DNA from: the human T2T-CHM13v2.0 reference genome, Homo sapiens
DNA: 64,000 bases
NCBI RefSeq assembly: GCF_009914755.1
Contig: NC_060926.1
Strand: one strand, 5' to 3'
Part shown: one piece after another, positions 28,979 through 49,300 of the stretch
Position numbering within the stretch: position 1 is the first letter of the stretch
Layout: each line of letters opens with the position of its first letter
Notes under the pieces: generated by a model
Told to the model about the DNA's origin: nothing
What the model saw: the letters and a program-made list of their open reading frames with translations, nothing else
Database searches by the model: none
Made by a program: the position numbers and the translations under genes

Positions 28979-31014
28979 TAAGCCACCACACCTGGCCCCC
29001 ATTTTTTTTTAAAGCCCTTTTTAACCTTCTGACACTACACTACAAGATGCTCCTGGTTCATCTTGTATATTTCCTGCTCCAGCCCTAGAATCAGCCATTT
29101 TTCCATGGAGCCCTGGCTCTTTTCGTTAGAGAATGGTATTTAAAAACTATGACTGAGTGCTAGGTGTGCTTGTTGTCCATTTACTTTTCACTCTCTTATT
29201 CCTTCATCTGTTCCTTCTCTACAGATTGTTTCTCCTCTGCTGCTGAGCTTAGCTGCTTGAGCATTCAAATATGCCCAAGTGCTTCTCCCATTAATTCTTC
29301 ATCCATGTCCACACCTGGGCTGCATTCTGAAGGGAATATGTCTCTTTTTGGGCCCCTAGGCTAAGCTCATATAACAGCAGGTTGAGGGACTACTTGGTCT
29401 CCTTCCATGTAAACTGACATGCTAAGCTAAGCCCTCTAGATCTTACTACTCAAATATAAGAAAAGAGGAACTCAAGGAAAAATACATAAGAGGAGAGGGG
29501 GAAAGAACTTTGACTTAAATCTAGAGAAGCAGATCTAAACCATCTGCTCATGGCTTTCCCCTGGGGTCTCACCCTGGTTCCTCCTACTTGGGTGTTAAGG
29601 GGTGATATAAGGGCACCTCCTTGGTCTACTGCCAACCAGCCTCAGGGGCAAAAGTGAGACACAAAGTGAATGCAGAGTCCACCTGTGGGAGCTTGTGTTT
29701 GCTACTCCTGTGTTCCCTACATGGAAGGCAGGGCACACCTTAGCAGAAGGCTCAGGGACAGTCTGAAAAGGGCTTCCCCCAGAGCAACTGCGGAGGCACA
29801 CATAAAAAAGACTATGCTTTTGCTTAATGTTAACTTGAAATAGGAAAAACATAAGAACTTCACATGGTAGAATTCGGTGGGGTGTATATTTAGGTCTTAA
29901 ATTTTCAGAAGTAGGCAACTTTGGCTTCATTCATGCATATAATACCAGAACTCTTTGGATTCCTGGGTCTTCTTCAAATGTCACCTCTGCAAACTCAGCA
30001 GAGGTGTAACCAGTTCTCCCTGAATCATAACAAAGTCAAGCTCATTAAAGTTCAGGCAAATAGCACTCTGTGTTATTTTCTGAAATTTGGAGAGGAAATA
30101 GGCAGGCAGATTCTCCTTCACAGTATGAATTTTAAAAATAATTCTTAGGTATATTTTTTCCTAAGACTTCTCTCTTTATGTTAATGCTGGTCTCTCTTCA
30201 GGAATATAAAAGTATACTACTAGGCTTCACACTAAGTGAAAGATACCTATGGATCCCTTCAATCCTAGAGAGATCTGATTTAAGAAATTGCACAAAGCAT
30301 AAATCACTTAATTAGGTCCATTTTAATAAAGGGTATAGGAGTTTACAACTCAAAACAATTCATAAAACCTATCAGATACATACGATAAATCACACCGAGA
30401 GTGCAATAACATAAATCCAATGGTCTGCAAATAAGAGGTATTGCAAAAATTGTTAAGATTGACTTTCATGTTTCCCCCCCTCCTTTCTCTTGTTCACAGC
30501 CCGAGATTATGTGTACATTGTTTTCTGAGGCCTGATGACCTCAATACTCCTTCTGGCTGGAGAGACCTCCTCATTCAGTCCATTCCAAATAGTCAGCAGA
30601 GGGAGTTCACCTCTTCTCCACGGAATGAGCGTGGTCCTTGTCCTTTATTATTTGGTTTCTATCTCCTAACAAATGACATTAAATGTTCCCTCATTCAAAA
30701 CATCTTGTGGGCCTTGTGGTGTTCTGGTCACTGCTACCCTCTCAATGCCACACATGAGCCCTCAGGGTGAGCCCTACAGAGTTTCATCCTTGTGGATAAG
30801 AAGATGTGTACTTGGGAACAAGGCTAAAGCCATGGCTGATTTCCCCAACCTTTTATCGCGAAGAACTCCAGTTGTAACTTTTGAGAGTTTTTTTGGCAAA
30901 AGGAACTACATTTACTCATGCCAAATACCTATGGTCACTTCTCAGTACTCTTTGGATACCTTTATTAGGAGAGCTTGAATTAACACCATGGAAGAAAGCA
31001 TGAAGATGAATGAG

Positions 31015-31039
31015 CACACACACACACACACACACACAC
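31015..31039. repeat. (CA)n microsatellite
   Basis: Direct reading. Confidence 0.95.
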
Positions 31040-33351
31040 CCCATTCACACTCAAATAGGAATCTCTGGTAGACTCAAAGAGTACAGCTGATTTGCCATTT
31101 CAGAGTGAAAAGGCTGCACTGTCTCACCCTGCCCCCAAAGTCTAACCTATCCTATTTTAACTGGTATTGGTAAAAACTATTTTTGCAATTCCTTGCCGAA
31201 AGGAATCAAACGGATCCCTTTAACATGTACATATAGTTCCATTATAATGCAATGCAGGTAACACTAACTTGATTTCAAGAACATTGTCAAAACTGGGGTA
31301 CACATCCTTCTATTAGAAATGGCTGGGGGACAGCTGAGAATAAATTTATGGAATTACAAATTATGGGAATACTGGACTAAGTCAAGAATGGTTACCATGT
31401 AGCCATTTTTACCAGCTATTCTAGAGTCCCTTCACACATAAACTTGACCCTGCATTCCGGGAAAGGTACCTCTGGGTTGTCACTACAGAGTAAGGCTGGG
31501 GTCCTGCCAACCTTCCTTCATCCTTTCTTCTAGTTCATAATAGGGAAGGTGAGCCATTTCATTCATTCATGTTTTGTTTGTTTTGTTTTTTTGAGACAGG
31601 GTCTGGCTCTATTGCCTGGGCTGGAGTGCAGTGACACGATCTTGGCTTAGTGCAACCTCTGCCTCCCGTGCTCAAGCCATCCTCCCACCTAAGCCTCCCA
31701 AGTAGCTGGGACTACAGGTGTGCACCACCATGCCTGGCTAATTTTTGTATTTTTTGTAGAGACAAGGTTTTGCCATGTTGCCCAGGTTGGTCTTGAACTC
31801 ATGAGCTCAAGCGATCGGCCCAACACAGCCTCCCAGAGTGCTGGGATTCCAAGTGTGAGCCACCACACCCCGCCCATTTCATTCTTATTTGGTGAGATTG
31901 TCACAGACTTGGCTGAAACTTAACAAGAAACTGTTTACAGCAACAAAGGAAGCAATTAAAGTTAACATGATCATTCAACTGTGCCATTCATCATGCACTT
32001 ATTGACATGCTCAAAATAGGGGAATGTTAAGTAAGGAAATGAAGTGGGAACAGGAACAAGGGAGCTAAGCCAAGAGGACTTCCAGGGACTTGAACAAAAA
32101 CAATTCCCAACCACATACTACTTTTCAAGCATTTTGAAACTCTTCTTTTCCTTTAGTGATGTTTTCAGTAACAAACTTGCAAGTGTTCTTGGTGGTTAAA
32201 AAACAAAACAAAACTACAAGTATCAGCTGAGAAAGACAAAGAAAAAACTAAGAATTTAAATTAGATAATTCCATTTAAAGTTTCCAATTCCTCGTTTAGG
32301 TGGAGTTGGAACATTAGAACTCAGGGGTGGTTTGGATATTAACAAGGTACTCCTGCCTCCTCAGAAGCTACAGTCTTTTCTGCAGCTCTCTTATGTACCT
32401 CTTATCAAAATAATTTCAGTCCCACATTTCTCGGATAAAACCACATCTGTGGTTTTATCCAGCAACCATTTCACAGTCGACTGGCACGTGTTCTCCAATT
32501 TCAGTTCCAAACACACAACACAGAATCACACTTTTCTTTATTAAAGGGACCCAAGTGATTTTTAAGCTGTATTCTTCCTGCTAGAGAATGAATTGAGTAG
32601 CATCCTTCTCTAATTTCCTACAATAAAATTTCCTATGTGATATACTGCATATATATTATATCTGATATATGTTTTGATTATTTTTCTTTATGGAAGCAAA
32701 TACAGAATTTCCTTGTCAGATCACTCTGATGATTATAATCTGCTACTTTGATTATGCATCAGTGAAATGTCCACCAAGCAGTTGAAAACACTGATGTACA
32801 TGTATTCTAAAACTTACTAAATAATGGGCCAGTAAGATACCAGTATCTTTCTAGAACGTTTAGAAAGAGATCTTAGTTGCCAGAGAAAACTCAGATACAA
32901 CATGGGCCTGTAAACACATACACTCTAGTCTACAAATATGAGACTTTTCAACTCAACAATAAGTGGGCCGAAAACAATATAGGGCGTATGACCTAGACTC
33001 CCTGGGTGCTGCTCAGCAGCTGCTTCAGCATCAAATTGTGTTCATCCCATTTTCTAATCTAACCAAGCACTTGGAACTAAAGGGCTGTATGTGAGCCCAA
33101 GAAACTGATATATTAAATATTTTTCACCACATATGACATCTTTCATTCAGTACTGCCTGTTAGTCAATTACTGTGGATTCTTTCAGGGTTCATCAATGCA
33201 TGTGTGGCTCGATGGTTTAGGAATAAATATATTCTGGCTCAATGCTTTCCACTGAAATGAAAGGTCACAACTTCTATGTTCCCTATCAAATGTGTAAAGC
33301 AAAAACACAACAAACGAAAACAAGAAAGTAGAGTTGTTTGTTGATTATATA

Positions 33352-33697
33352 CAGTCATGTGCTGCATAAAAACGATTCCATCAATGATGGACCACATATA
33401 CCATGATGGTCCCATAAGATTATACCATATTTTTACTGTACCTTTTCTATGTCTAAAATGTTTGGATACAGAAATACTTACCATTGTGTTACAACTGCCT
33501 ACAGTATTCAGTACAGTAACATGCTGTACAGGTTTGTAGCCCAGGAGCAACAGGCTGGACCATATAGCCTAGGTAGGTAGTAGGCCGTGCCATCTAGGTT
33601 TGTGTTAAGTACACTCTGTGATGTTCACACAATGACAAAATCACCTAAGGATGCATTTCTCTGAATGTCTCCCTCATCATTAAGTGGGGCATGACTG
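33352..33697. mobile_element. Tigger3a/MER7-like non-autonomous DNA transposon
   Basis: 346 bp with terminal inverted repeats CAGTCATG...CATGACTG and TA target duplication on both sides. Confidence 0.85.
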
Positions 33698-33924
33698 TAT
33701 TTTTTTTTCTCTTTAAGGAAATAAGACCCTACTGTAATACAAGTCGGCAGAATCTAACTGTTACTAATAATTAATGTAATCCACAAGTCAAAGTTTTTTC
33801 ATGCATCACCAAAAAAAAAAAAAAAAGTAATTTGCATGTGTTTGCATCCGTTTCTGTATTCAAAGAAGGTATGTAGAGTCTCCACCCATCATGTCTCCAG
33901 TGACAATTTTTTTTTTTTTTTTGA

Positions 33925-34239
<315 letters not shown>

Positions 34240-34434
34240 TGACGAAGTATTCAACTATGTAGTAAAATCACCATGATTTTATCCTGATTTGCACCTTGAG
34301 AATTAAAATAGTCACTTGATTAGAAGGGAATTATCAAATAACCAAAGGAAAAACATTTTGCTGGGCTGTTACAGAGATAATCCTGAATATTTGGAAAGGG
34401 GAATTAGAATGATCTCTTACTTTAAGAATTTCTG

Positions 34435-34700
34435 AACCAAACACCGCATGTTCTCACTCATAGGTGGGAATTGAACAAAGAGAACACATGGACACAGGAA
34501 GGGGAACATCACACTCTGGGGACTGTTGTGGGGTGGGGGGAGGGGGGCGGGATAGCATTAGGAGATATACCTAATGCTAAATGACGAGTTAGTGGGTGCA
34601 GCACACCAGCATGGCACATGTATACATATGTAACTAACCTGCACATTGTGCACATGTACCCTAAAACTTAAAGTATAATAATAATTTTAAAAAAAAAAAA
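34435..34700 (+). mobile_element. 5'-truncated L1PA (PA2-4-like) 3' end, antisense in the AAK1 3' UTR
   Basis: AAACACCGCATGTTCTCACTCATAGGTGGGAATTGAAC...G-rich tract...poly(A); flanked by AAGAATTTCTG. Confidence 0.92.
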
Positions 34701-34788
34701 GAATTTCTGGGCCAGGTGCGGTGGCTCACGCCTGTAATCCTAGCACTTTGGGAAGCCAAGGTGGGTGGATCACAAGGTCAAGAGTTCA

Positions 34789-35133
<345 letters not shown>

Positions 35134-35813
35134 TCATTCAACTAGAAAGACAATTTTGCATCCACTAATACATAAAAATCAGAAAGGAGAATTGGGAAAA
35201 AGCATATTCTTAGAATAACATTTAGCATCCACCAAAGTGAAGGACATAGGTTTCTGGCACAGTTGAAACCTTAGTTGGAAAACCAAACCTTGGCACAGTG
35301 CCAATTATTTATCTTTTGATCAGGACATTTGAAATAGGCAGAGACCACCAAAAAAGGACAAAGTGTTGAAAAGTAGCTGCTCATTTTTTACTGCCAATAT
35401 TCCTGAACTTTAAAGAATATCACACCTAATCAACCGCAATAGAATTGGGCATTCAGACTTGATTCTTAGATGAATTTCCAATAATTTTTAAATCATTGAT
35501 CTGGCTTGGTAAATAGCTCTCCAAACTTCTACAGCTAATGGAAAAATCACTTAACCTTTACTAGAAGTAACAGAAAGCATTAAAGTTGAAACCTAATGCA
35601 GCAGTTCTTTCCAGTGAGTTGAACTGCCTTAGCAGAAATCTTCCCATTGAGATACAGGCTTTATTTTTATTATTATATTTTTGGAGACAGTGTCTCACTC
35701 TGTCACCCAGGCTGGACTCACAACTCACTGCAGCCTCAAACTCCTGGGCTCAAGTGATCCTTCCAGCTCAGCCTCCTGAGTAGCTACAGGCATATGTCAC
35801 CATACCCAGCTAA

Positions 35814-36001
<188 letters not shown>

Positions 36002-36503
36002 TAGTAGAGATGGGGTTTCACCATGTTGGCCAGGCTGGTCTCAAACTCCTGACCTTGTGATCTGCCCACCTTGGCCTCCCAAAGTGCTGGGATTACAGGT
36101 GTGAGCCACCATGCCCAGCCTATTTTTTTATTTATTTTTTGAAGGGACAGGGTCTCGCTGTGTTGCCAGAGTTGGTCTTGAACTTCCTGGGCTCAACTGA
36201 TCCTCCTGCCTCAGCCTTCCAAAATGCTGGTATTACAGGTGTGTGGCACTGCACCTGGCCAGCTTTATTTTAAGGCACTAATAATAAAGGGTATGAAAAA
36301 AGCTAGGAATAAGTCAGATCTTTCCAGAAATAAAAGACAATTTTAAAAAACATCAGTTAACCTGTCTGGCCTATTTCAACATCTAAAGAGGATAGAGAAT
36401 GTAAAAGTTTTCATGCCTACCTGATTCAGCTCTTTTCCATTCTCCCAAACACTTATTTCCATGTCTCAGATTTACATTTCCTCAAAAGGCAGTAGAGATT
36501 TGG

Positions 36504-36504
<1 letters not shown>

Positions 36505-36535
<31 letters not shown>
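36505..36535. repeat. (AAC)n microsatellite, ~10 units
   Basis: Direct reading. Confidence 0.95.
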
Positions 36536-36536
<1 letters not shown>

Positions 36537-37734
36537 AACCACCCCAAAACAAGCAAGCCTAGTTTGTAGCCTAGTCTCATGATTAATGAATTCCCTAATG
36601 CTGGCATTTAGCCCACATACTGAGAGGCCGGAACTGTAACAAGGTGCTCTTTTCTAGTGTTGTAAGGGGAAAATGTATAAGGAAAATTAATTTTTCATAA
36701 TCAGGTAAATATAATTTGTTAATAGCAAAACAAGAAATTCCGGAGAGAAAAAAGATTTACTCTGAAACACCAGTTCCAGAAGGATTTCCCTACACCTTCC
36801 AACGTATTCTACTTTGCCATGAGAAAAAAACTAAATAAATAAAATGGGGTTCAAGTCAGTTAGGCGAGCAAACACCAAAAAACGAGTGATTTCATTGTGG
36901 AGGTAGGCATGATGGGGCAGGATTTCCCTCAAGTGGAAATGCTTCCTGTGCACACACACGTATACATGCACACACAAACCTGTACACTCACACTAATTTC
37001 AAAAGCATGGATGTGGGGAAAGCCCTGCCAGCATGACTAGACATGAGGAGTTAGCCCATCTGCCTGTATCTCTACACAGGCTCTGACGTACATTCCACAC
37101 CCATAGACAGTCATGCACGAGAGCCAGCCTGGCTTGCACACAGACTGAGAATCAGATCTGGAGACTCCTAGAGCTGCTGCTTCTACAGGAATTATTAGTA
37201 ACTGCAGGATTATACTTCCTGTTGATGTGCAGGGTTTTTATCTTGCTCTTCTTTCCAGACATCTCCCCTTTTCAAGAGTACTAAATCTTGATTTAGTGGA
37301 GGGACTAATCTTGATTCTTCGATGGGCATGACTTAGAACAGGAGCTACAGGAATTAAAACTAGCAACAATAGGGCCCCTTTGGGATTGGGGTGAAGAAGT
37401 ATTTCAGGATTTAAACAGTTTCTGTGGGTGGGGCGGGGGGAAAGCAGAGTTCTTGGTGGAAGTGGATGACCTCTGTGAAGGAGATGAAAATGCCTCCAAG
37501 TCCAGAAATCAATATAAACAAACAAACAAACAAACAAAAATGAACATAACTTAAAGGGGCTTCAACTAAATATCACTGCAACTGAGTTTGTTGACTCAAG
37601 AAATTCTGCTCTGACGCAGGGAATTGAAATATAAGAACTGATAATATTTCTTCTTCAGAAGGCTAAGCTGGGAGTGCCATGGCGGGTATTGAGGGTGGGA
37701 TAGAGACAAGAGGCTTGAGGCTCAGGTTTTGCTC

Positions 37735-38861
37735 CTAGGGTTTCTTGCCTGATTTTGAAGGGAAGGGTGCTAGAGCAAATGGATCAGCAGCTGGCAGCTC
37801 CGTAGTCCTGGAGGAAAGGGATGTGATAGAAACAGACCCAGCTATCGACTGCTTGTTGGTTTGTGAAACAATTTTGTAGGCAGCAATGGGCTGGGCTTCT
37901 GGACTTGGCTCGTCTTCTGGGCTATAGTGACGGGAATACTTGGATAAGGACTGGGGGCGGAATGGTTTGCCAGCCATGGGGCCTGAGACAGCTTCTTTCT
38001 GGAGCTGAGGTCCTTTGTTTCTGTCATTAGAATGACCCCCAGATTCCAGGCAGGATCCCCTGGGAGAGATGCTGTCCAGATGGTCTGCTGCTTGTACAGA
38101 ATGGGACAGGAGGTTAGACTGTTGCACAAAACCAGCTGTGGAATACTGAGCTTGGACAGAGGTGTACACAGCTCTCTCACGGCTCGCGGGCAGGGGGACA
38201 TCACCTGTCTGACTGAGGAGACCGGTCTGTGCAGGCAGCTCCTGGGAGGTGCATTGGATAACTGTTAACTCCTCCATGCTTTTCTTCTTAGTGAAAGGAG
38301 CTCTCAAAAACACGTCTGACTCCTCTGGCTGGGAAGGAGCCATACTGCTCTTGGAGACAAATGGGGCTTTGGAGAAAATGTCCATGTCATCATTTGGAAC
38401 CCTTGAGCTCCTGAAGGGAGCTATGGCAAAAACATCTGGCTCACTGAGCCCATCAGTGGCTGGCTGTGTGAAGGCTTGAAACTGGTTCTTTCTTCCACCT
38501 TGCACTGTCTTTGCTTGCTCAGGAGAGACTTCTGGTGGAGCGAATGGAACGGCTCCTCCCAGCTTCCCCGGGGGGGGTCTGCAGCTCTCATCTTCTTCTT
38601 CAGACTCCATAAGGAGAGGCCGAGACCCACTGCAGTCCAGCATGTCTCCTTCAAGGTCAGTCCCTTCCTCTTCGCTGCTGTGGAATGAGCTGTTGCTTGA
38701 AGGGCCATCTCTGGCCAAGTAGTCAGATTCTAAGTTGTTCTGAGTCTTTGTGCCAGGTACTCTGGAGGGGTCTGGATACAGCGGAAGGCCTTTAACACCC
38801 AGTGATTCTTTAAAGTGCTCTACAGTTATTACAGGACAGGGATTGGACTCCCTCTGGAGAT
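37735..38861 (-). CDS. AAK1: Alternative distal terminal coding exon of AAK1 (375 aa, BMP2K-like C-terminal tail) inside the canonical 3' UTR
   Basis: ORF-track 37735..38718 extends upstream with no stop to acceptor CATTAATTCTGCATTTTATGCTTTTCTAG|AT at 38862/38861. 1127 nt = 2 + 375 codons including TAG. Phase 1 matches all upstream AAK1 donors. Non-repeat sequence with BMP2K-like motifs. Confidence 0.85.
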
Positions 38862-40069
38862 CTAGAAAAGCATAAAATGCAGAATTAATGTGTAGGTCAA
38901 TTCAACTCTATTTGGAACATTTAATGGTCAACCCGCGGCAAAAACATTGTGGGACCAAATAATAGATGTTGAAAATGCAACAGGAAAAACATAAAAATAA
39001 AAGTCAGGCAAGGAAACTGCACACAAACTGGAACACAATCAACCACTGTCTCACGTTTTGGAACATGATAGGCACGACGTACAGGAAAGGAGATGAAGAT
39101 GTTAGGCACACAGACATTCAGCGTAACTATGCAATGCTCCTACACACAGGGCCAGGCACGGACACCTGCTCTACCTGGCACTGGCTCATTATGGAATGAA
39201 AACAAACCCAGTCATTCATCTCCACATATACCATGACAGTTTTGGATTATGTAGAAACACTGTCTGGGGATGACTCAATTCAGAATCTGGCATGTGGTCA
39301 TCCGCGCCACATGCAGAGGGACAAACTCTCTGAAAAGAAGCAGAATGTGGCTGCTTGATAAATGCAAGTTTACTTGATGACTTACATCACAAGCACTACT
39401 CAAAGAGCATACGAGTGCCCAAAATATAAATACTGAAGGTACCTTCTGAGGGGAGCATACAGCATCAAAATCAGACCAAATAAATCACCTTCAGCTGGAG
39501 TTGCCCCAGAATTTTGTTTTCAGTCTTCTAAGTTCATAAAGATCTCCTCTGCTTAAATGAATCTGCCATAAAGTTCTTTAAGCAGAAGGAGTAAAATGCA
39601 TGGGCCATTACAGAAGCATTAGCAAACTCCAATATACTAGTCTATTTCTATCTAGGTAGAGGTGCCTCAGGGTGCTCTGGCTTTTAAAATCAAATAGACA
39701 ATTATCAGAATGCAAGAGAGCTTACCTTCCAAGAAATATTAGCAGGTTAGAAGTATGTCATTGGGCACATGTTAGCAAGAGGGCAGGAAAAAGGCATATG
39801 TAACTAAGCAAGAAGAATCCAGAGAAAGGGTGGTTGGGGGTAAAGGTATCATTTCATCATGGGCTCAGTAAAGAGATACTACTGGAGTTTCCCAACCCAC
39901 CAGGATAAGAATATTAGATACAATGATTTGGAGCCATAGATGACCCAGAACCTCTGTAGAGATGGAACTCAATGATCCCCTTCCCATACTGACCCTCTCC
40001 CCTCCTATGCAAACCATTAGCTAGCAGAAATTTCTGCCAAAAATTATCCCCTGCTAAAGTTTCTGCATG

Positions 40070-40150
40070 AATTAAGCACACAGACCACAGCAGAAGAGGC
40101 ATTAAAATCAGTTTATTGGGAAACCAGTCACTTAGAGACATTACATTGTA
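40070..40150 (-). terminator. Candidate AAK1 polyadenylation site
   Basis: Minus strand has upstream TGTA, AATAAA (40117-40112), then a GT-rich downstream element CTGCTGTGGTCTGTGTGCTT. Confidence 0.6.
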
Positions 40151-43100
40151 AAGAGAATGTAGAGAGAGGTCTGAACATTTTATAAGATACTGTACAAAAA
40201 TACTATGTTTCTCTGAATCCTATAACTTTTTAGCAGTGCTTCTTTTTAAACAGTTCTGACCTTAAATATTGTTTTCAGAAACAGAACAAAAATGTGTTTG
40301 TCCTCCATTTTTATTTTCCTTTCTAACAGTTTGAATGCGTTCAGTGAATTCCAGATTGGGGCGTTAAGTTAAATTCTGTACTGGTGCCAAATGGCTTTCA
40401 GAATAGTATTTGAAGAATAAGATTTTGAAAAGAATAAATTTTTCCTTGTATTATAATTTTAGTATGTGCAGCTACATGGTGATACGAAAGCATCAGTCAG
40501 TGGACAGGAAATAAACAGAATACCTTCTTCCTTGCGATTTATGTGGACAGACATAATCCTAATTTCTCAGGCAAGTAAATTGATATTAGATTTGTCTCAG
40601 TGATACCAAGATGATAATTTCTGGGAGGAAATTCAAATAAAAGGGAGAAAAATAAGTTTTCCAAAATAAGGTTTGCAGAGCCTTAAAGAAGGACAAGAGG
40701 GCCCTAAAACTCCTTGAACCACCTTCCTCACATAGTATCAGTTGGACAAAGTTTTCAGTTGCCAAAACAAAAGCACAATTTCTCATCTTCCAAAACTACC
40801 TTGAAAGTTGATGTTATTAAGCTTGTTCTGCAGGAGAGCAAAATATCTCTTAGGGAAAAAAAATGGAAAACTTAGTCAAGCCAGTGACCAACTCTGGCAT
40901 CATACAGGTCAATAATCCAATGAACACTAGTTTGAACAGAGTCAGTGTTTTTTGGAAATTTAAACTGAATTCAGTTAAAACAATTTGTGCACAGAGACTG
41001 GCAAAAAAGCAGCTATCTATTGAACCAGGGGCACTTTGGATGCCTGAAGTGCTAGATTACATTTTGAGAACTAGGAAGTACCAAGGGGTGTGTGTATGTG
41101 CCCATATTCAGGGTTGGAGAGGATGGAAGAACATGTCTAACCCATCAAAATTATTTGTTAAAAAGTGGGTTTTTGGTCGAGAACCCATTTGGAAAACCTT
41201 CCAACTCAGAGCATATTCTATGACCTTCATGATGAGTACTGGGAAAATCAGACTTAAAATTCCAACAACTTTGAATAATTTACAAAAACAGTCACAAAAA
41301 CACCAGAATATCAAGTTTGAAGGGAAAATTAGTCTCCTGTCCTTCAAAACAAGGACAAGAGCTATTTCCTATCTTTCTTTCAGCATCAACAGGCTTTGTA
41401 GGAATGGAAAAGTACATTTAAAGGGTTGTCCTGAGAAGGCCAAGTCCCTTAACCTTTCTATTCTTGTTAGAGGAGGTACAGTGTGGCTGAGGCGGAGAGC
41501 AACCACACTTTGCAACTCTCCAGGCCTGGCACTCTGAAGGGCAAAGAAATGCCAGAGAATATGGGGGAAGCCCAGACCTCCACATTCCCTTAAGGAATTC
41601 TGGTGGTGGCAGCACCAGAAACAAGGTAGTCGAGAGAAGGATAAATTCCAAATATACTAGAAACAGAAGGTAACCATTAAATCTTGTTGGCAGATAAAAG
41701 TCTTTTTTTGAGTATGTGAATGTGTTCTTACAGGGAAAATGTGTTTTCAGGGTGAACAGTTCCTTTATATGAAGGTAGCATTGTGTCAACAAGAAAACGT
41801 GTTTGAAGCAGTCTCTTTACTAGCATTGAAGGATTTATACTAACCTAACCACATGCCTTGACCCAGTTCCTTTGGTAACCAATGGCACGTCATAGCAGAT
41901 ACCCTGTGGCCATAGAGCTCAGTAAACACTGCCTGTTGTACCTCAGGGGCTAAAGCCCAGGGCCTGGCTTCATAGTCTGCACAGGGTCTTACTTATCATA
42001 GAGCCTAACGTAGGGTTTTGTTATAATTCCCTCAAACTGGATCATGCCTCTTTTTATTTTGGTTTCACACATAAAATTAAGCAAGAAGTCAAAACATACT
42101 TCTTTTTCTTGCTCTGATGTAGGACTGTGTGCCAGGTTAGGCACGTTGACACTTTCAATATGGGTAACTCCATATTAGTCTATTTTGAGGCTCCAAATTA
42201 TGTAGATTTCAGCAAGAACTCACATGCTTCAGGGAAGAGAAGGAGTTCCTAAAATACCTGACAACTTGGCAACTATCCTCACCAGCTCCCTATTCACTTC
42301 CAAAGCAACCCAAAGTGCTGAATCATTTAGGATGGGTTTCCCCTGGAAACTCCATCTGATTGACATAGTGAGGGCCATCAGAATGCTCCCTACAGAATTA
42401 AAATCTGAAGACTTAAATGTCAGGCTGGATATTCCTTAATGAAATACATCACACAACACCAGAAGTTTACTTTTCCTCATACCAAAAACTGAAAGAACGG
42501 TTACAGGGAGTATCAAAGATATGATTCTTGCCAAAAACAGAAAACGAAGACTTGGAGCATTGAGAAGAAGCCTTCTCACATATAGTTAGTAAACAGAAAG
42601 CAAAATATCCCTTCACAAGAACTTGGAAATGCAGCAGCAATTGAAACGTAAAATTTTAGAACCAAACTGGGGAAATCAAGAGACGTACATCAAACTAATA
42701 ATTACCATGACCTTCTAGCTCACATAACAAAATTAAGCATTTGGTTCCACCATATATTAGGTAGCTGCATTAAAACCCACGACTGGGAAATGAGGGACCT
42801 CATGGAAGCCAAAAATGGCCAGCTGTGCCTCTCAGGCCAATGAGGCAATTAAATGAGTGAGTTTTCTCACTGGGGATAAAATTATTCTTGCCAACACAAA
42901 ATGTTTAATTAAGTTGGCCTGGGTATATTAGGGATTAAGTTAGAGGAGGGAAGCTGCAAACCTGCGCTCCATTTTACAACCCTGAGTCTGGTCATATCCA
43001 GTGTAGGCTGGCAGGCGTCTTATTCTCCTTGAGACTAAAACAGGGGTTTTACTCTCTCAGGTAGCCATGATTCATTAATATGTCCTCAGTGTGTAGCTAT

Positions 43101-48178: not shown

Positions 48179-48273
48179 CTACAGGTCTATGAGCTGATCC
48201 ACCAGCAGTAAAGACCTGGCTAGGTTGGGAAGACTGGACTCAGAGCTCCCACTGCTGTTTCTAGAGTGCCCAC
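48179..48273 (-). CDS. AAK1: AAK1 canonical last coding exon ((G)[30 protein letters not shown]), end of the 961-aa isoform
   Basis: Acceptor TCTCTCCACTTCCAG|GT, 95 nt to TAG at 48181-48179. Ends in clathrin-box-like LIDL; matches recalled AAK1 C-terminus. Confidence 0.95.
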
Positions 48274-49189: not shown

Positions 49190-49300
49190 CTTGTGGGTTT
49201 TTGGTTATCAATACAGGAATAGGGTCAAACTCATCTTCAGCCACCTTGTCCGAGCCCTCAGGGACATCAAAACCTGAGATGAGATTACTATCTTCTGCAG
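49190..49300 (-). CDS. AAK1: AAK1 penultimate coding exon (111 nt; (A)[36 protein letters not shown])
   Basis: Acceptor CTGTATTAAG|CT and strong donor AAG|GTAAGA, phase 1/1. Confidence 0.95.

What the first reader, a model, noticed from the sequence alone, without database searches (positions are those of the whole stretch)
37738..38640. The hidden tail is a BMP2K-paralogous array of D-x-F-x-x-x-P-F motifs
Seen: GGAVPF, DVFAIAPF, DIFSKAPF, DVFLRAPF and a terminal DPFALAPFPSK, plus acidic blocks SSEEEGTDLE and SRPLLMESEEEDE (CK2-type sites). Known, from recall: the long C-terminus of the paralogous NAK kinase BMP2K/BIKE has RPLLMDSEDEE, DVFGAVPF, DVFTKAPFSKK and ends DPFGAAPFPSKQ, in a similar order. 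Inference: the exon predates the AAK1/BMP2K duplication, so this is probably the ancestral full-length NAK architecture. The repeated motif is a candidate uncharacterised short linear motif for a trafficking adaptor (AP-2 ear, EH/PTB domain or COPII-associated partner).
Basis: partly seen in the sequence, partly recalled or inferred. Interest (0 to 1): 0.8.

Follow-up and report, generated by a model that had tools for sequence, protein, structure and literature searches.

The report
AAK1's alternative BMP2K-like tail exon
This stretch is a real, already annotated alternative last coding exon of the human kinase gene AAK1; it replaces the protein's usual short end with a long floppy tail, shared with the sister kinase BMP2K, that carries four very old docking motifs whose exact binding partner is still unknown.

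Summary
On the minus strand, 37738-38861 is an open frame, the longest in the window (388 codons between stops). It starts at the acceptor of a RefSeq "other transcript" exon and joins AAK1 exon 21 in frame. That join swaps the canonical 31-residue LIDL end for a 375-residue tail.

The tail is homologous to the BMP2K C-terminal exon:
- Pfam BMP2K_C, E 1.4e-62.
- My own AAK1-only versus BMP2K-only profile comparison, E 1e-14 local and 7e-20 global, colinear.
- The same intron phase at both acceptors.

Four D-x-F-x-x-A-P-F motifs are present in 19 of 19 AAK1 tails examined. Their fixed positions are 98% identical in distant AAK1 orthologues, against 29% for the rest of the tail. AlphaFold2 predicts disorder.

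It is not hidden or new. Predicted AAK1 isoforms with this tail, already tagged PF15282, exist for many mammals. A 2019 preprint named DXFXXXPF motifs in BMP2K and showed that its C-terminal tail binds AP-2 appendages.

Three points remain open or under-appreciated:
- No paper I could find discusses the AAK1 tail.
- The splice choice excludes the PDZ-binding LIDL end.
- The motif's binding pocket is unknown.

The claim of an ancestral NAK (Numb-associated kinase family) architecture beyond vertebrates is untested.

The parts
37738..38861 (-). Coding part of the alternative last exon of AAK1. The first 2 bases complete a codon split with exon 21, then 374 codons follow: a BMP2K-like disordered tail.
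   Evidence: ORF, translation, in-frame join with exon 21, hub table exon 30304-38861, Pfam PF15282 E 1.4e-62, AF2 mean pLDDT 49.3 with no secondary structure
37735..37737 (-). TAG stop codon of the tail isoform
38862..38863 (-). AG of the 3' splice acceptor (ttttctag|ATCTCCAG), intron phase 1
   Evidence: The BMP2K tail exon acceptor is also phase 1.
38413..38436 (-). Motif 1, DVFAIAPF (tail residues 142-149)
   Evidence: D, F, A, P and F are invariant or nearly so in 13 aligned tails. Present in 19 of 19 tails.
38359..38382 (-). Motif 2, DIFSKAPF (tail residues 160-167)
38293..38316 (-). Motif 3, DVFLRAPF followed by TKKK (tail residues 182-189)
37762..37785 (-). Motif 4, DPFALAPF (tail residues 359-366). 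It is the only copy with a canonical DPF and lies 8 residues from the C-terminus.
38650..38682 (-). Acidic serine block HSSEEEGTDLE (residues 60-70). HSS is conserved in distant orthologues and the block fits the CK2 consensus.
38587..38631 (-). Block SGSRPLLMESEEEDE (residues 77-91). It is shared with BMP2K (HRPLLMDSEDEEEEE) and conserved in distant AAK1 orthologues.
37927..37965 (-). AAK1-specific invariant block PFRPQSLSKYSRH (residues 299-311). It aligns to BMP2K's DPFGAKPFH motif, but the D-x-F half is lost.
   Evidence: local pLDDT rise
38542..38559 (-). GGAVPF (residues 101-106). Not a motif copy, and conserved in mammals only.
49190..49300 (-). AAK1 exon 21, whose donor is shared by both 3' choices
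   Evidence: hub table; (donor AAG|gtaag)
48179..48273 (-). Canonical terminal coding segment (31 residues ending LIDL). It is skipped when the 38861 acceptor is used.
   Evidence: hub table. LIDL is the PDZ-binding motif for PDLIM5 (PMC13346677).

Best explanation
Shown: 37738-38861 (minus strand) is the coding part of an alternative last exon of AAK1. Exon 21 can splice either to the acceptor at 48273 or to the acceptor at 38861. The first choice gives the canonical 961-residue protein ending in the PDZ-binding LIDL. The second gives a protein of about 1305 residues and about 141 kDa, with a 375-residue tail in place of the last 31 residues. The tail is intrinsically disordered and homologous, block for block, to the C-terminal exon of the paralogue BMP2K. 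It holds four motifs, D-[V/I/P]-F-x-x-A-P-F, that are fixed in all AAK1 tails examined, set in fast-evolving linkers. It also holds acidic serine clusters and an AAK1-specific KYSRH block. The canonical isoform has none of the four motifs, and the tail isoform lacks LIDL. Inferred: like the BMP2K C-terminal tail, which is needed for coated-pit localisation and for binding the AP-2 alpha and beta2 appendages, the AAK1 tail is a multivalent, low-affinity docking array. Such an array would hold the kinase on AP-2/clathrin coat assemblies. The splice choice would then switch AAK1 between a PDZ/focal-adhesion-targeted form and a BMP2K-like coat-targeted form. Which pocket reads the motif is not known.
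For: Exon and frame: plus the hub table. Coding constraint: 120 of 120 listed hits cover 100% of the tail at 84-90% identity, in models up to 1310 residues. There are 24 more distant representatives, three of which sit in the AAK1 kinase clade with 100/100 support. Homology: PF15282 at 212.7 bits against a cut-off of 27. Only three loci in the genome pass the cut-off: BMP2K, a chromosome X copy and this one. hhalign of 19 AAK1 tails against 15 BMP2K tails gives probability 98.3% and E 1.3e-14 locally (319 colinear columns at mact 0.1), and 99.3% and E 6.7e-20 globally. Both acceptors are phase 1. Motifs: 4 copies against 0.004 expected. There are 4 copies in 19 of 19 AAK1 tails and 7 copies in 15 of 15 BMP2K tails. 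The fixed positions are 98% identical in 17 non-mammal rows, against 29% for the other 358 positions (Mann-Whitney U test, p 1.2e-10). All AAK1 copies lie in this exon in 4 of the 5 full-length AAK1 models scanned; the fifth, P0130, has one extra copy (DAFGIDPF) upstream of the tail. Disorder: mean pLDDT 49.3, pTM 0.18, with the highest 10-residue blocks at the motifs; mean hydropathy -0.65. Function by homology: deleting the BMP2K C-terminal tail abolishes coated-pit localisation, and the alpha appendage binds this tail alone, not the tail-less protein (10.1101/870899, sections 6-8). Tail-plus BMP2K-L is enriched at the plasma membrane with EPS15R, while tail-less BMP2K-S is juxtanuclear (PMC7473771 passages). 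LIDL function: PMC13346677 passages.
Against: No experiment on the AAK1 tail itself was found. The functional inference rests on one unreviewed preprint about the paralogue, which describes AP-2 binding as weaker than that of EPS15. Only 1 of the 4 AAK1 motifs has the canonical alpha-appendage DPF. AP2A1, AP2A2, AP2B1 and FCHO2 do not occur in the eLife BioID tables held as text. The endocytic hits there (EPS15R, PICALM, AGFG1, NUMB) are reported as proximal to both BMP2K-L and BMP2K-S in the paper's text; the table passages I saw show EPS15R and PICALM in both lists. So they are not tail-specific. The 961-residue form is called predominant in RPE cells, so the tail form may be minor or tissue-restricted. 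I saw no human transcript counts or peptides. AAK1 motifs (A at position 6) and BMP2K motifs (G at position 4 in 86%) differ, so the partners could differ too.
Confidence: 0.6

Rival explanations
1. The motifs are relaxed versions of the tandem DPF-x2-3-DPF unit and dock on the mu-homology domain (muHD) of FCHO1/2 or SGIP1, tying the kinase to the pioneer module that activates AP-2.
For: D-x-F-x-x-x-P-F has the same 8-residue register as DPFxxDPF. The preprint draws this parallel and shows that BMP2K stability depends on FCHO (abstract). Motif 4 differs from the tandem unit at only one of the six key residues.
Against: In SGIP1 muHD binding, single changes of D to E, P to L or F to W in either DPF severely reduce binding, and only Eps15, Eps15R and Dab2 were said to carry the unit (PMC4731787 passages). 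AAK1 motifs 1-3 differ at two of the six key positions (V/I for P, A for D). The preprint saw no obvious FCHO binding by the BMP2K C-terminal tail. FCHO2 is absent from the BioID tables.
Confidence: 0.1
2. D-x-F-x-x-A-P-F is a motif class of its own, read by a partner not yet linked to it (for example a PTB, EH, gamma-ear/GAE or COPII-associated domain). AP-2 appendage binding would then be a side effect of the DPF copies.
For: Position 6 is A in 76 of 76 AAK1 instances, and P-F is invariant at fixed spacing. This is more constraint than a bare DPF or D-x-F needs. The motif count is fixed at exactly 4 (AAK1) and 7 (BMP2K) across all tails examined. NUMB, EPS15R and SEC16A are proximal to BMP2K. 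From recall only: many BMP2K copies read D-x-F-G-x-hydrophobic, which resembles the GAE-domain consensus.
Against: The BioID hits are shared by tail-plus and tail-less BMP2K, so none is tail-specific. No solved structure contains these tails: the only PDB hit has E 1.2 and is unrelated.
Confidence: 0.2
3. In humans the frame is a conserved but essentially unused relic. The region acts as 3' UTR of the 961-residue mRNA, and the tail isoform is splicing noise.
For: The selected RefSeq transcript treats the region as 3' UTR (hub table). The 961-residue form is called predominant in RPE cells. No paper on the tail isoform was found.
Against: The frame is 388 codons open where other frames have stops every 20-25 codons. 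Identity is 84-90% across placental orders, and the four motifs are kept in very distant AAK1 orthologues. Acceptor and phase are intact, and RefSeq carries transcripts that use it (hub table).
Confidence: 0.05

Closest known systems
BMP2K (BIKE) long-isoform C-terminal tail, Pfam PF15282 BMP2K_C
   Same: Homologous terminal coding exon entered through a phase-1 acceptor. The blocks are colinear: HSS/acidic cluster, RPLLM-D/E-SE-acidic, D-x-F-x-x-x-P-F copies, a KPF block, and a terminal DPF-x-x-APFPSK near the C-terminus. Both are disordered arrays of the same motif.
   Different: AAK1 has 4 copies with A fixed at position 6. BMP2K has 7 in the exon plus 1 upstream, with G at position 4 in 86%. 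In BMP2K the exon belongs to the canonical long isoform. In AAK1 it lies 9.3 kb downstream of the canonical stop, inside the canonical 3' UTR, and competes with the LIDL-encoding acceptor. AAK1 exons 18-21 gave no match in the BMP2K locus. AAK1 has its own KYSRH block.
Tandem and single DPF arrays of Eps15, Eps15R and Dab2
   Same: Disordered arrays of Asp/Phe-based motifs in endocytic proteins, with the same 8-residue register as DPFxxDPF. Single DPFs bind the AP-2 alpha appendage weakly and gain strength by avidity (PMC4921775 passages).
   Different: Three of the four AAK1 copies have V or I instead of the first P, and all have A instead of the second D. P to L, and even the conservative D to E, severely reduce muHD binding.
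Canonical AAK1 C-terminus (alpha-adaptin-interacting domain / AAK1L clathrin-binding region, ending LIDL)
   Same: The same gene and the same upstream exons. It is also a disordered coat-binding region with DPF, NPF and DLL motifs (PMC2173317 passages; review PMC10653628).
   Different: It ends in the PDZ-binding LIDL motif, which binds PDLIM5 and is absent from BMP2K. It contains none of the four D-x-F-x-x-A-P-F copies. The two ends are mutually exclusive.
BMP2K-L / BMP2K-S splice-variant pair
   Same: A NAK kinase made with or without the PF15282 tail by alternative splicing. For BMP2K the two forms localise differently and act in opposite directions (PMC7473771).
   Different: For AAK1 the tail-less form carries a specific PDZ ligand. 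No functional comparison of AAK1 forms with and without this tail was found.

Membership tests
Pfam PF15282 (BMP2K_C) | Profile match above the curated gathering score, covering the whole model | tested here: met
   212.7 bits against a cut-off of 27, E 1.4e-62, profile positions 1-263 of 263. In the whole genome only BMP2K, a chromosome X copy and this locus pass the cut-off.
Pfam PF15282 (BMP2K_C) | Homology to BMP2K tails shown without a profile that may already contain AAK1 sequences | tested here: met
   hhalign of AAK1-only (19 tails) against BMP2K-only (15 tails) profiles: E 1.3e-14 local and 6.7e-20 global, colinear over 319-337 columns. Pairwise BLASTP alone is weak (E 8e-6), and phmmer with the human tail found no BMP2K representative.
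Pfam PF15282 (BMP2K_C) | Lies C-terminal to a NAK-type kinase domain in the same polypeptide | tested here: met
   The join with AAK1 exon 21 is in frame. Orthologue models carry Pkinase plus PF15282 in one chain. Human transcript support comes from the hub table only.
Tandem-DPF ligand of FCHO/SGIP1 muHD | Two DPF triplets joined by 2-3 residues, all six residues contributing | tested here: not met
   0 of 4 AAK1 copies have D-P-F-x2-3-D-P-F. Copies 1-3 differ at two key positions and copy 4 at one (criteria from PMC4731787).
AP-2 alpha-appendage DP[FW] motif | A D-P-F or D-P-W triplet in a disordered region | tested here: inconclusive
   1 of the 4 copies (residues 359-361) has DPF, and the region is predicted disordered.
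CK2 phosphorylation sites | S/T-x-x-[D/E] consensus (recalled) and actual phosphorylation | not testable with these tools
   S61, S62 and S86 fit the consensus and lie in conserved blocks. No phosphorylation data were seen.
Ancestral NAK-family architecture (beyond vertebrates) | A colinear tail in single-copy NAK kinases of invertebrates or early chordates | not tested
   All 24 representatives found are AAK1-type. Atlas neighbours are chordate AAK1/BMP2K clusters. No eukaryote genome other than the window's own could be searched.

The most novel reading that the evidence does not exclude
D-[V/I/P]-F-x-x-A-P-F is a distinct short linear motif class, fixed in number and sequence across all AAK1 tails examined. 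It would be read by a dedicated pocket that is neither the alpha-appendage DPF site nor the muHD tandem-DPF cleft. By choosing between two acceptors for its last exon, AAK1 would toggle between a PDZ-targeted focal-adhesion kinase (LIDL end) and a BMP2K-like coat kinase (motif array). The roughly 145-kD brain species seen in 2002 could be this roughly 141-kDa isoform.
Probability: 0.2. Interest if true: 0.6.

Novelty: already known. Interest (0 to 1): 0.3.

Why it matters
AAK1 is a drug target (neuropathic pain, antivirals), and almost all of the work I read uses the 961-residue form. Two of those papers treat the AAK1 and BMP2K C-termini as different (10.1101/870899 discussion; PMC13346677). 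The second builds an evolutionary argument on the LIDL end being absent from BMP2K. The annotated but undiscussed tail isoform shows that AAK1 can also carry a BMP2K-type end, and that this end excludes LIDL. If the isoform is expressed at meaningful levels, it bears on three things: redundancy between the two kinases, isoform-specific knock-outs and rescues, and antibody band assignment. It also offers a clean, deeply conserved four-copy array on which to find what reads the D-x-F-x-x-x-P-F motif.

Tried and rejected
- A single-sequence search of the own genome with the tail found only itself (1 match among 18 scored candidates). The Pfam profile was needed to reach BMP2K.
- phmmer against 1.84 billion representatives gave 24 hits, all AAK1-type, with no BMP2K and nothing invertebrate. 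The invertebrate question stays open.
- Pfam PF15282 itself misses the three most distant full-length AAK1 models at E <= 0.001. Its match to mammalian AAK1 may therefore partly reflect AAK1 rows in the model, so I ran the independent hhalign test.
- The first Atlas call failed. A stored bat homologue gave only chordate AAK1/BMP2K clusters, with scores of 0.86-0.91.
I had prepared the AP-2 alpha-2 appendage, residues 701-939 of P0363, against tail residues 135-195.
- The PDB sequence search gave one chance hit at E 1.2. Rfam gave nothing at 37000-39500.
- The DNA repeat search gave two short two-copy families unrelated to the motif units, so the motifs are not recent DNA duplications.
- GGAVPF was rejected as a motif copy.
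- The muHD reading was lowered.
- A literature search for a 145-kDa brain AAK1 band gave nothing relevant; in PMC8044098, the one hit I opened, the 145 kDa figure refers to synaptojanin.
- Henderson & Conner 2007 (PMC1924820) is not held. What I say about AAK1L comes from the review passage and from recall.
- The eLife BioID tables contain no AP-2 or FCHO2 entries.
- tblastn of AAK1 models against 55 kb of the BMP2K locus found shared kinase-proximal and WNPF/NFSKLT exons, but no counterpart of AAK1 exons 18-21.
- Rows dropped: 7 of the 24 representatives were left out of the conservation alignment as truncated or fragmentary (P0128, P0129, P0131, P0132, P0143, P0144, P0145). 14 of the 120 listed BMP2K hits and 7 of the 120 listed AAK1 hits were sampled for profiles.

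Full report
**What is there.** The window is the 3' end of human AAK1, which lies on the minus strand. Between the TAG at 37735-37737 and 38901 lies a 388-codon stop-free frame. It is the longest of the 7 frames of at least 150 codons in the 64-kb window; the next is 227. The other two minus-strand frames over 36000-41000 carry a stop about every 20-25 codons and never run more than 140 codons. The frame is also richer in G+C (52%) than the 1.1 kb on either side (42%).

**How it is used.** The hub table lists, for other RefSeq transcripts, a last exon 30304-38861.
- Position 38861 follows a good acceptor (ttttctag|ATCTCCAG).
- Joined to exon 21 (49190-49300, donor AAG|gtaag), the frame runs on without a break.
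- The first two exon bases complete a split codon (phase 1), and 374 codons follow.
- The canonical transcript instead splices exon 21 to 48273 and stops 31 residues later, at ...LIDL.

So the same donor has two acceptors 9.4 kb apart, and the two C-termini exclude each other. One is 31 residues with LIDL. The other is 375 residues of tail, giving a predicted protein of about 1305 residues. Orthologue models of 1304-1310 residues weigh about 141 kDa, and the tail alone weighs 40 kDa.

**Is it coding?** Several results say yes.
- The tail found 1167 proteins at E <= 0.001 among 8000 candidates.
- The 120 listed all cover 100% of it at 84-90% identity and are 905-1310 residues long. Where they are named, the names are AP2-associated protein kinase 1 of mammals, apart from one 'hypothetical protein' row. 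All 120 carry PF15282 as a precomputed domain.
- A search of every representative of a 1.84-billion-protein library gave 24 further hits (7 at E <= 1e-30). These are unnamed.
- Three of them are full-length and fall inside the AAK1 kinase clade, outside the mammals, with 100/100 support against BMP2K.
- An open frame kept at this identity across placental orders, and recognisably in orthologues only 29-37% identical, is not what untranslated sequence would show. This last step is inference, because I had no other vertebrate DNA for a dN/dS test.

**Homology with BMP2K.**
- Pfam BMP2K_C matches tail residues 157-370 over the whole model (212.7 bits, cut-off 27, E 1.4e-62).
- In the whole genome only three loci pass the cut-off: the BMP2K last exon on chromosome 4 (425 bits), a copy on chromosome X (388 bits) and this exon (215 bits). 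The other 8 matches score 17-19 bits.
- Pairwise BLASTP is weak (E 8e-6), and the Pfam model may itself contain AAK1 rows. It hits mammalian AAK1 at 222 bits but misses three distant AAK1 models.
- I therefore compared an AAK1-only profile (19 tails) with a BMP2K-only profile (15 tails from primates to turtles). hhalign gives probability 98.3% and E 1.3e-14 locally, extending colinearly over 319 columns at mact 0.1. Globally it gives probability 99.3% and E 6.7e-20 over 337 columns.
- The shared order of blocks is: HSS-acidic, RPLLM-acidic, the D-x-F-x-x-x-P-F copies, a KPF block, and DPF-x-x-APFPSK at the very end.
- The BMP2K exon is also entered in phase 1.

Both paralogues therefore inherited this terminal exon, which is the simplest reading. 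Upstream of it they share kinase-proximal and WNPF/NFSKLT exons, but I found no BMP2K counterpart of AAK1 exons 18-21.

**The motifs.**
- Strict D.F...PF occurs 4 times in the AAK1 tail (shuffle mean 0.004, 0 of 3000 reach 4). It occurs 7 times in the BMP2K exon (mean 0.008, 0 of 3000).
- Every one of the 19 AAK1 tails has exactly 4 copies, and every one of the 15 BMP2K tails has exactly 7.
- In AAK1 the consensus is D-[V 58%, P 26%, I 14%]-F-x-x-A-P-F. A is found at position 6 in 76 of 76 instances, and K/R/S-rich residues follow.
- In BMP2K position 4 is G in 86% of instances, and position 6 varies (V, A, T, K).
- Against 17 non-mammal AAK1 rows, the 16 fixed motif positions are 98% identical to human. 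The other 358 positions are 29% identical (Mann-Whitney U test, p 1.2e-10), and the 62 flanking positions within 10 residues are 31% identical.
- In 4 of the 5 full-length AAK1 models scanned, all copies lie in this exon. The fifth (P0130) has one extra copy upstream of the tail. BMP2K has one extra copy upstream of its tail exon.
- GGAVPF is not a copy and is conserved in mammals only.
- The motif units share no DNA repeats.
- AlphaFold2 with a 13-row alignment gives mean pLDDT 49.3, pTM 0.18 and essentially no secondary structure. The highest 10-residue blocks (61-65) sit at the four motifs and at the KYSRH block. Hydropathy is low and the net charge is -11.

This is the signature of short linear motifs in a disordered chain.

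**What is already in print.**
- bioRxiv 10.1101/870899 (abstract, sections 6-8 and passages read) reports 'nine, similar DXFXXXPF consensus motifs' in the BMP2K C-terminal tail and likens them to the EPS15 DPFXXDPF unit.
- It shows that deleting this tail abolishes coated-pit localisation. It also shows that both halves of the tail pull down AP-2, and that the GST-alpha and GST-beta2 appendages pull down BMP2K in a tail-dependent way.
- It saw no obvious FCHO binding, and it states that the C-termini and motifs of AAK1 and BMP2K 'appear distinct'. It is the only paper holding 'DXFXXXPF'.
- PMC13346677 (passages) shows that the LIDL end of the 961-residue AAK1 binds the PDLIM5 PDZ domain. It calls this end absent from BMP2K and calls the 961-residue form predominant in RPE cells.
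- PMC7473771 (passages and supplementary tables) shows that tail-plus and tail-less BMP2K localise differently. Its BioID tables list EPS15R, PICALM, AGFG1 and NUMB but no AP-2 subunit or FCHO2, and the paper reports these endocytic hits as proximal to both variants.
- Six searches found no paper on an AAK1 isoform with this tail.
- The AAK1L of Henderson & Conner 2007 (paper not held; described in a review) is, from recall, the 961-residue form and not this one.

**How it most likely works.** The following points are shown: the exon, its frame, its homology, its disorder and the conservation of the motifs. The function is inferred from the paralogue. On that inference the tail is a multivalent, weak docking array that holds the kinase on AP-2/clathrin assemblies. 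Using the 38861 acceptor would then trade the PDZ-binding LIDL end for a BMP2K-like mode of recruitment. I put this at 0.6.

The muHD reading is weaker, at 0.1. SGIP1 muHD binding is severely reduced by P to L or D to E in either DPF (PMC4731787), and AAK1 copies 1-3 differ at two such positions. A dedicated unknown reader (0.2) is kept alive by two facts: A is strictly fixed at position 6, and the copy number is fixed. A relic reading (0.05) is hard to square with the conservation.

**Verdict.** The feature is real but already in the annotation and in Pfam, and the motif has been named in the paralogue. The residual value is threefold:
- the literature I could search has not connected AAK1 to this tail;
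- the two AAK1 ends are mutually exclusive;
- the motif's reader is unknown.

The claim about invertebrate NAK ancestry could not be tested here.

Noticed in passing
L003 958-2295 (G000:C23:72619888-72620679 region, chromosome X): A third PF15282 locus: a copy of the BMP2K tail exon plus 3' UTR. It is 91.7% identical over 2758 nt and truncated at its 5' end inside the exon. It still has an intact 445-codon frame, 387.5 bits to PF15282, and dN/dS 0.42 against BMP2K (25 synonymous, 40 non-synonymous differences, 408 codons). It looks like a retrocopy. From recall it is probably the pseudogene BMP2KL.
   Followed up: partly
window 34022 (minus strand): The acceptor of another RefSeq 'other transcript' exon (30304-34022) lies in Alu-like sequence. 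Joined to exon 21, it gives a stop after one codon, so it would make a protein lacking both alternative ends.
   Followed up: partly
window 37927-37965 (minus strand; tail residues 299-311): The block PFRPQ-x-L-x-KYSRH is invariant or nearly so in all 13 aligned AAK1 tails. It has no BMP2K counterpart beyond 'KPF' and seems to be a BMP2K-type motif copy rebuilt into something else. Its function is unknown.
   Followed up: partly
literature: PMC2173317, section on cofractionation: The first AAK1 paper saw a species of about 145 kD in rat and bovine brain, against about 100 kD in liver, and guessed at tissue-specific splice variants. The tail isoform is predicted at about 141 kDa and the tail-less form at about 101-104 kDa. 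This is a lead only, because proteins rich in Q, P and A often run slowly on gels.
   Followed up: partly
L012 7854-7904 (BMP2K locus, chromosome 4): An extra motif copy (EDPFGSVPFISHSGK) lies in a BMP2K exon about 23 kb upstream of the tail exon. It matches the copy at about residue 647 of BMP2K orthologues.
   Followed up: partly
proteins P0130, P0133, P0138: Pfam PF15282 gives no match at E <= 0.001 on the three most distant full-length AAK1 models, although their tails align end to end with the human tail. The family's reach in databases is therefore probably understated.
   Followed up: yes
window 49294-49300 (minus strand): Exon 21 has two acceptors 6 nt apart (...attaag|CTGCAG|AAGA; hub table lists 49190-49300 and 49190-49294). 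The shorter choice would drop two residues.
   Followed up: no
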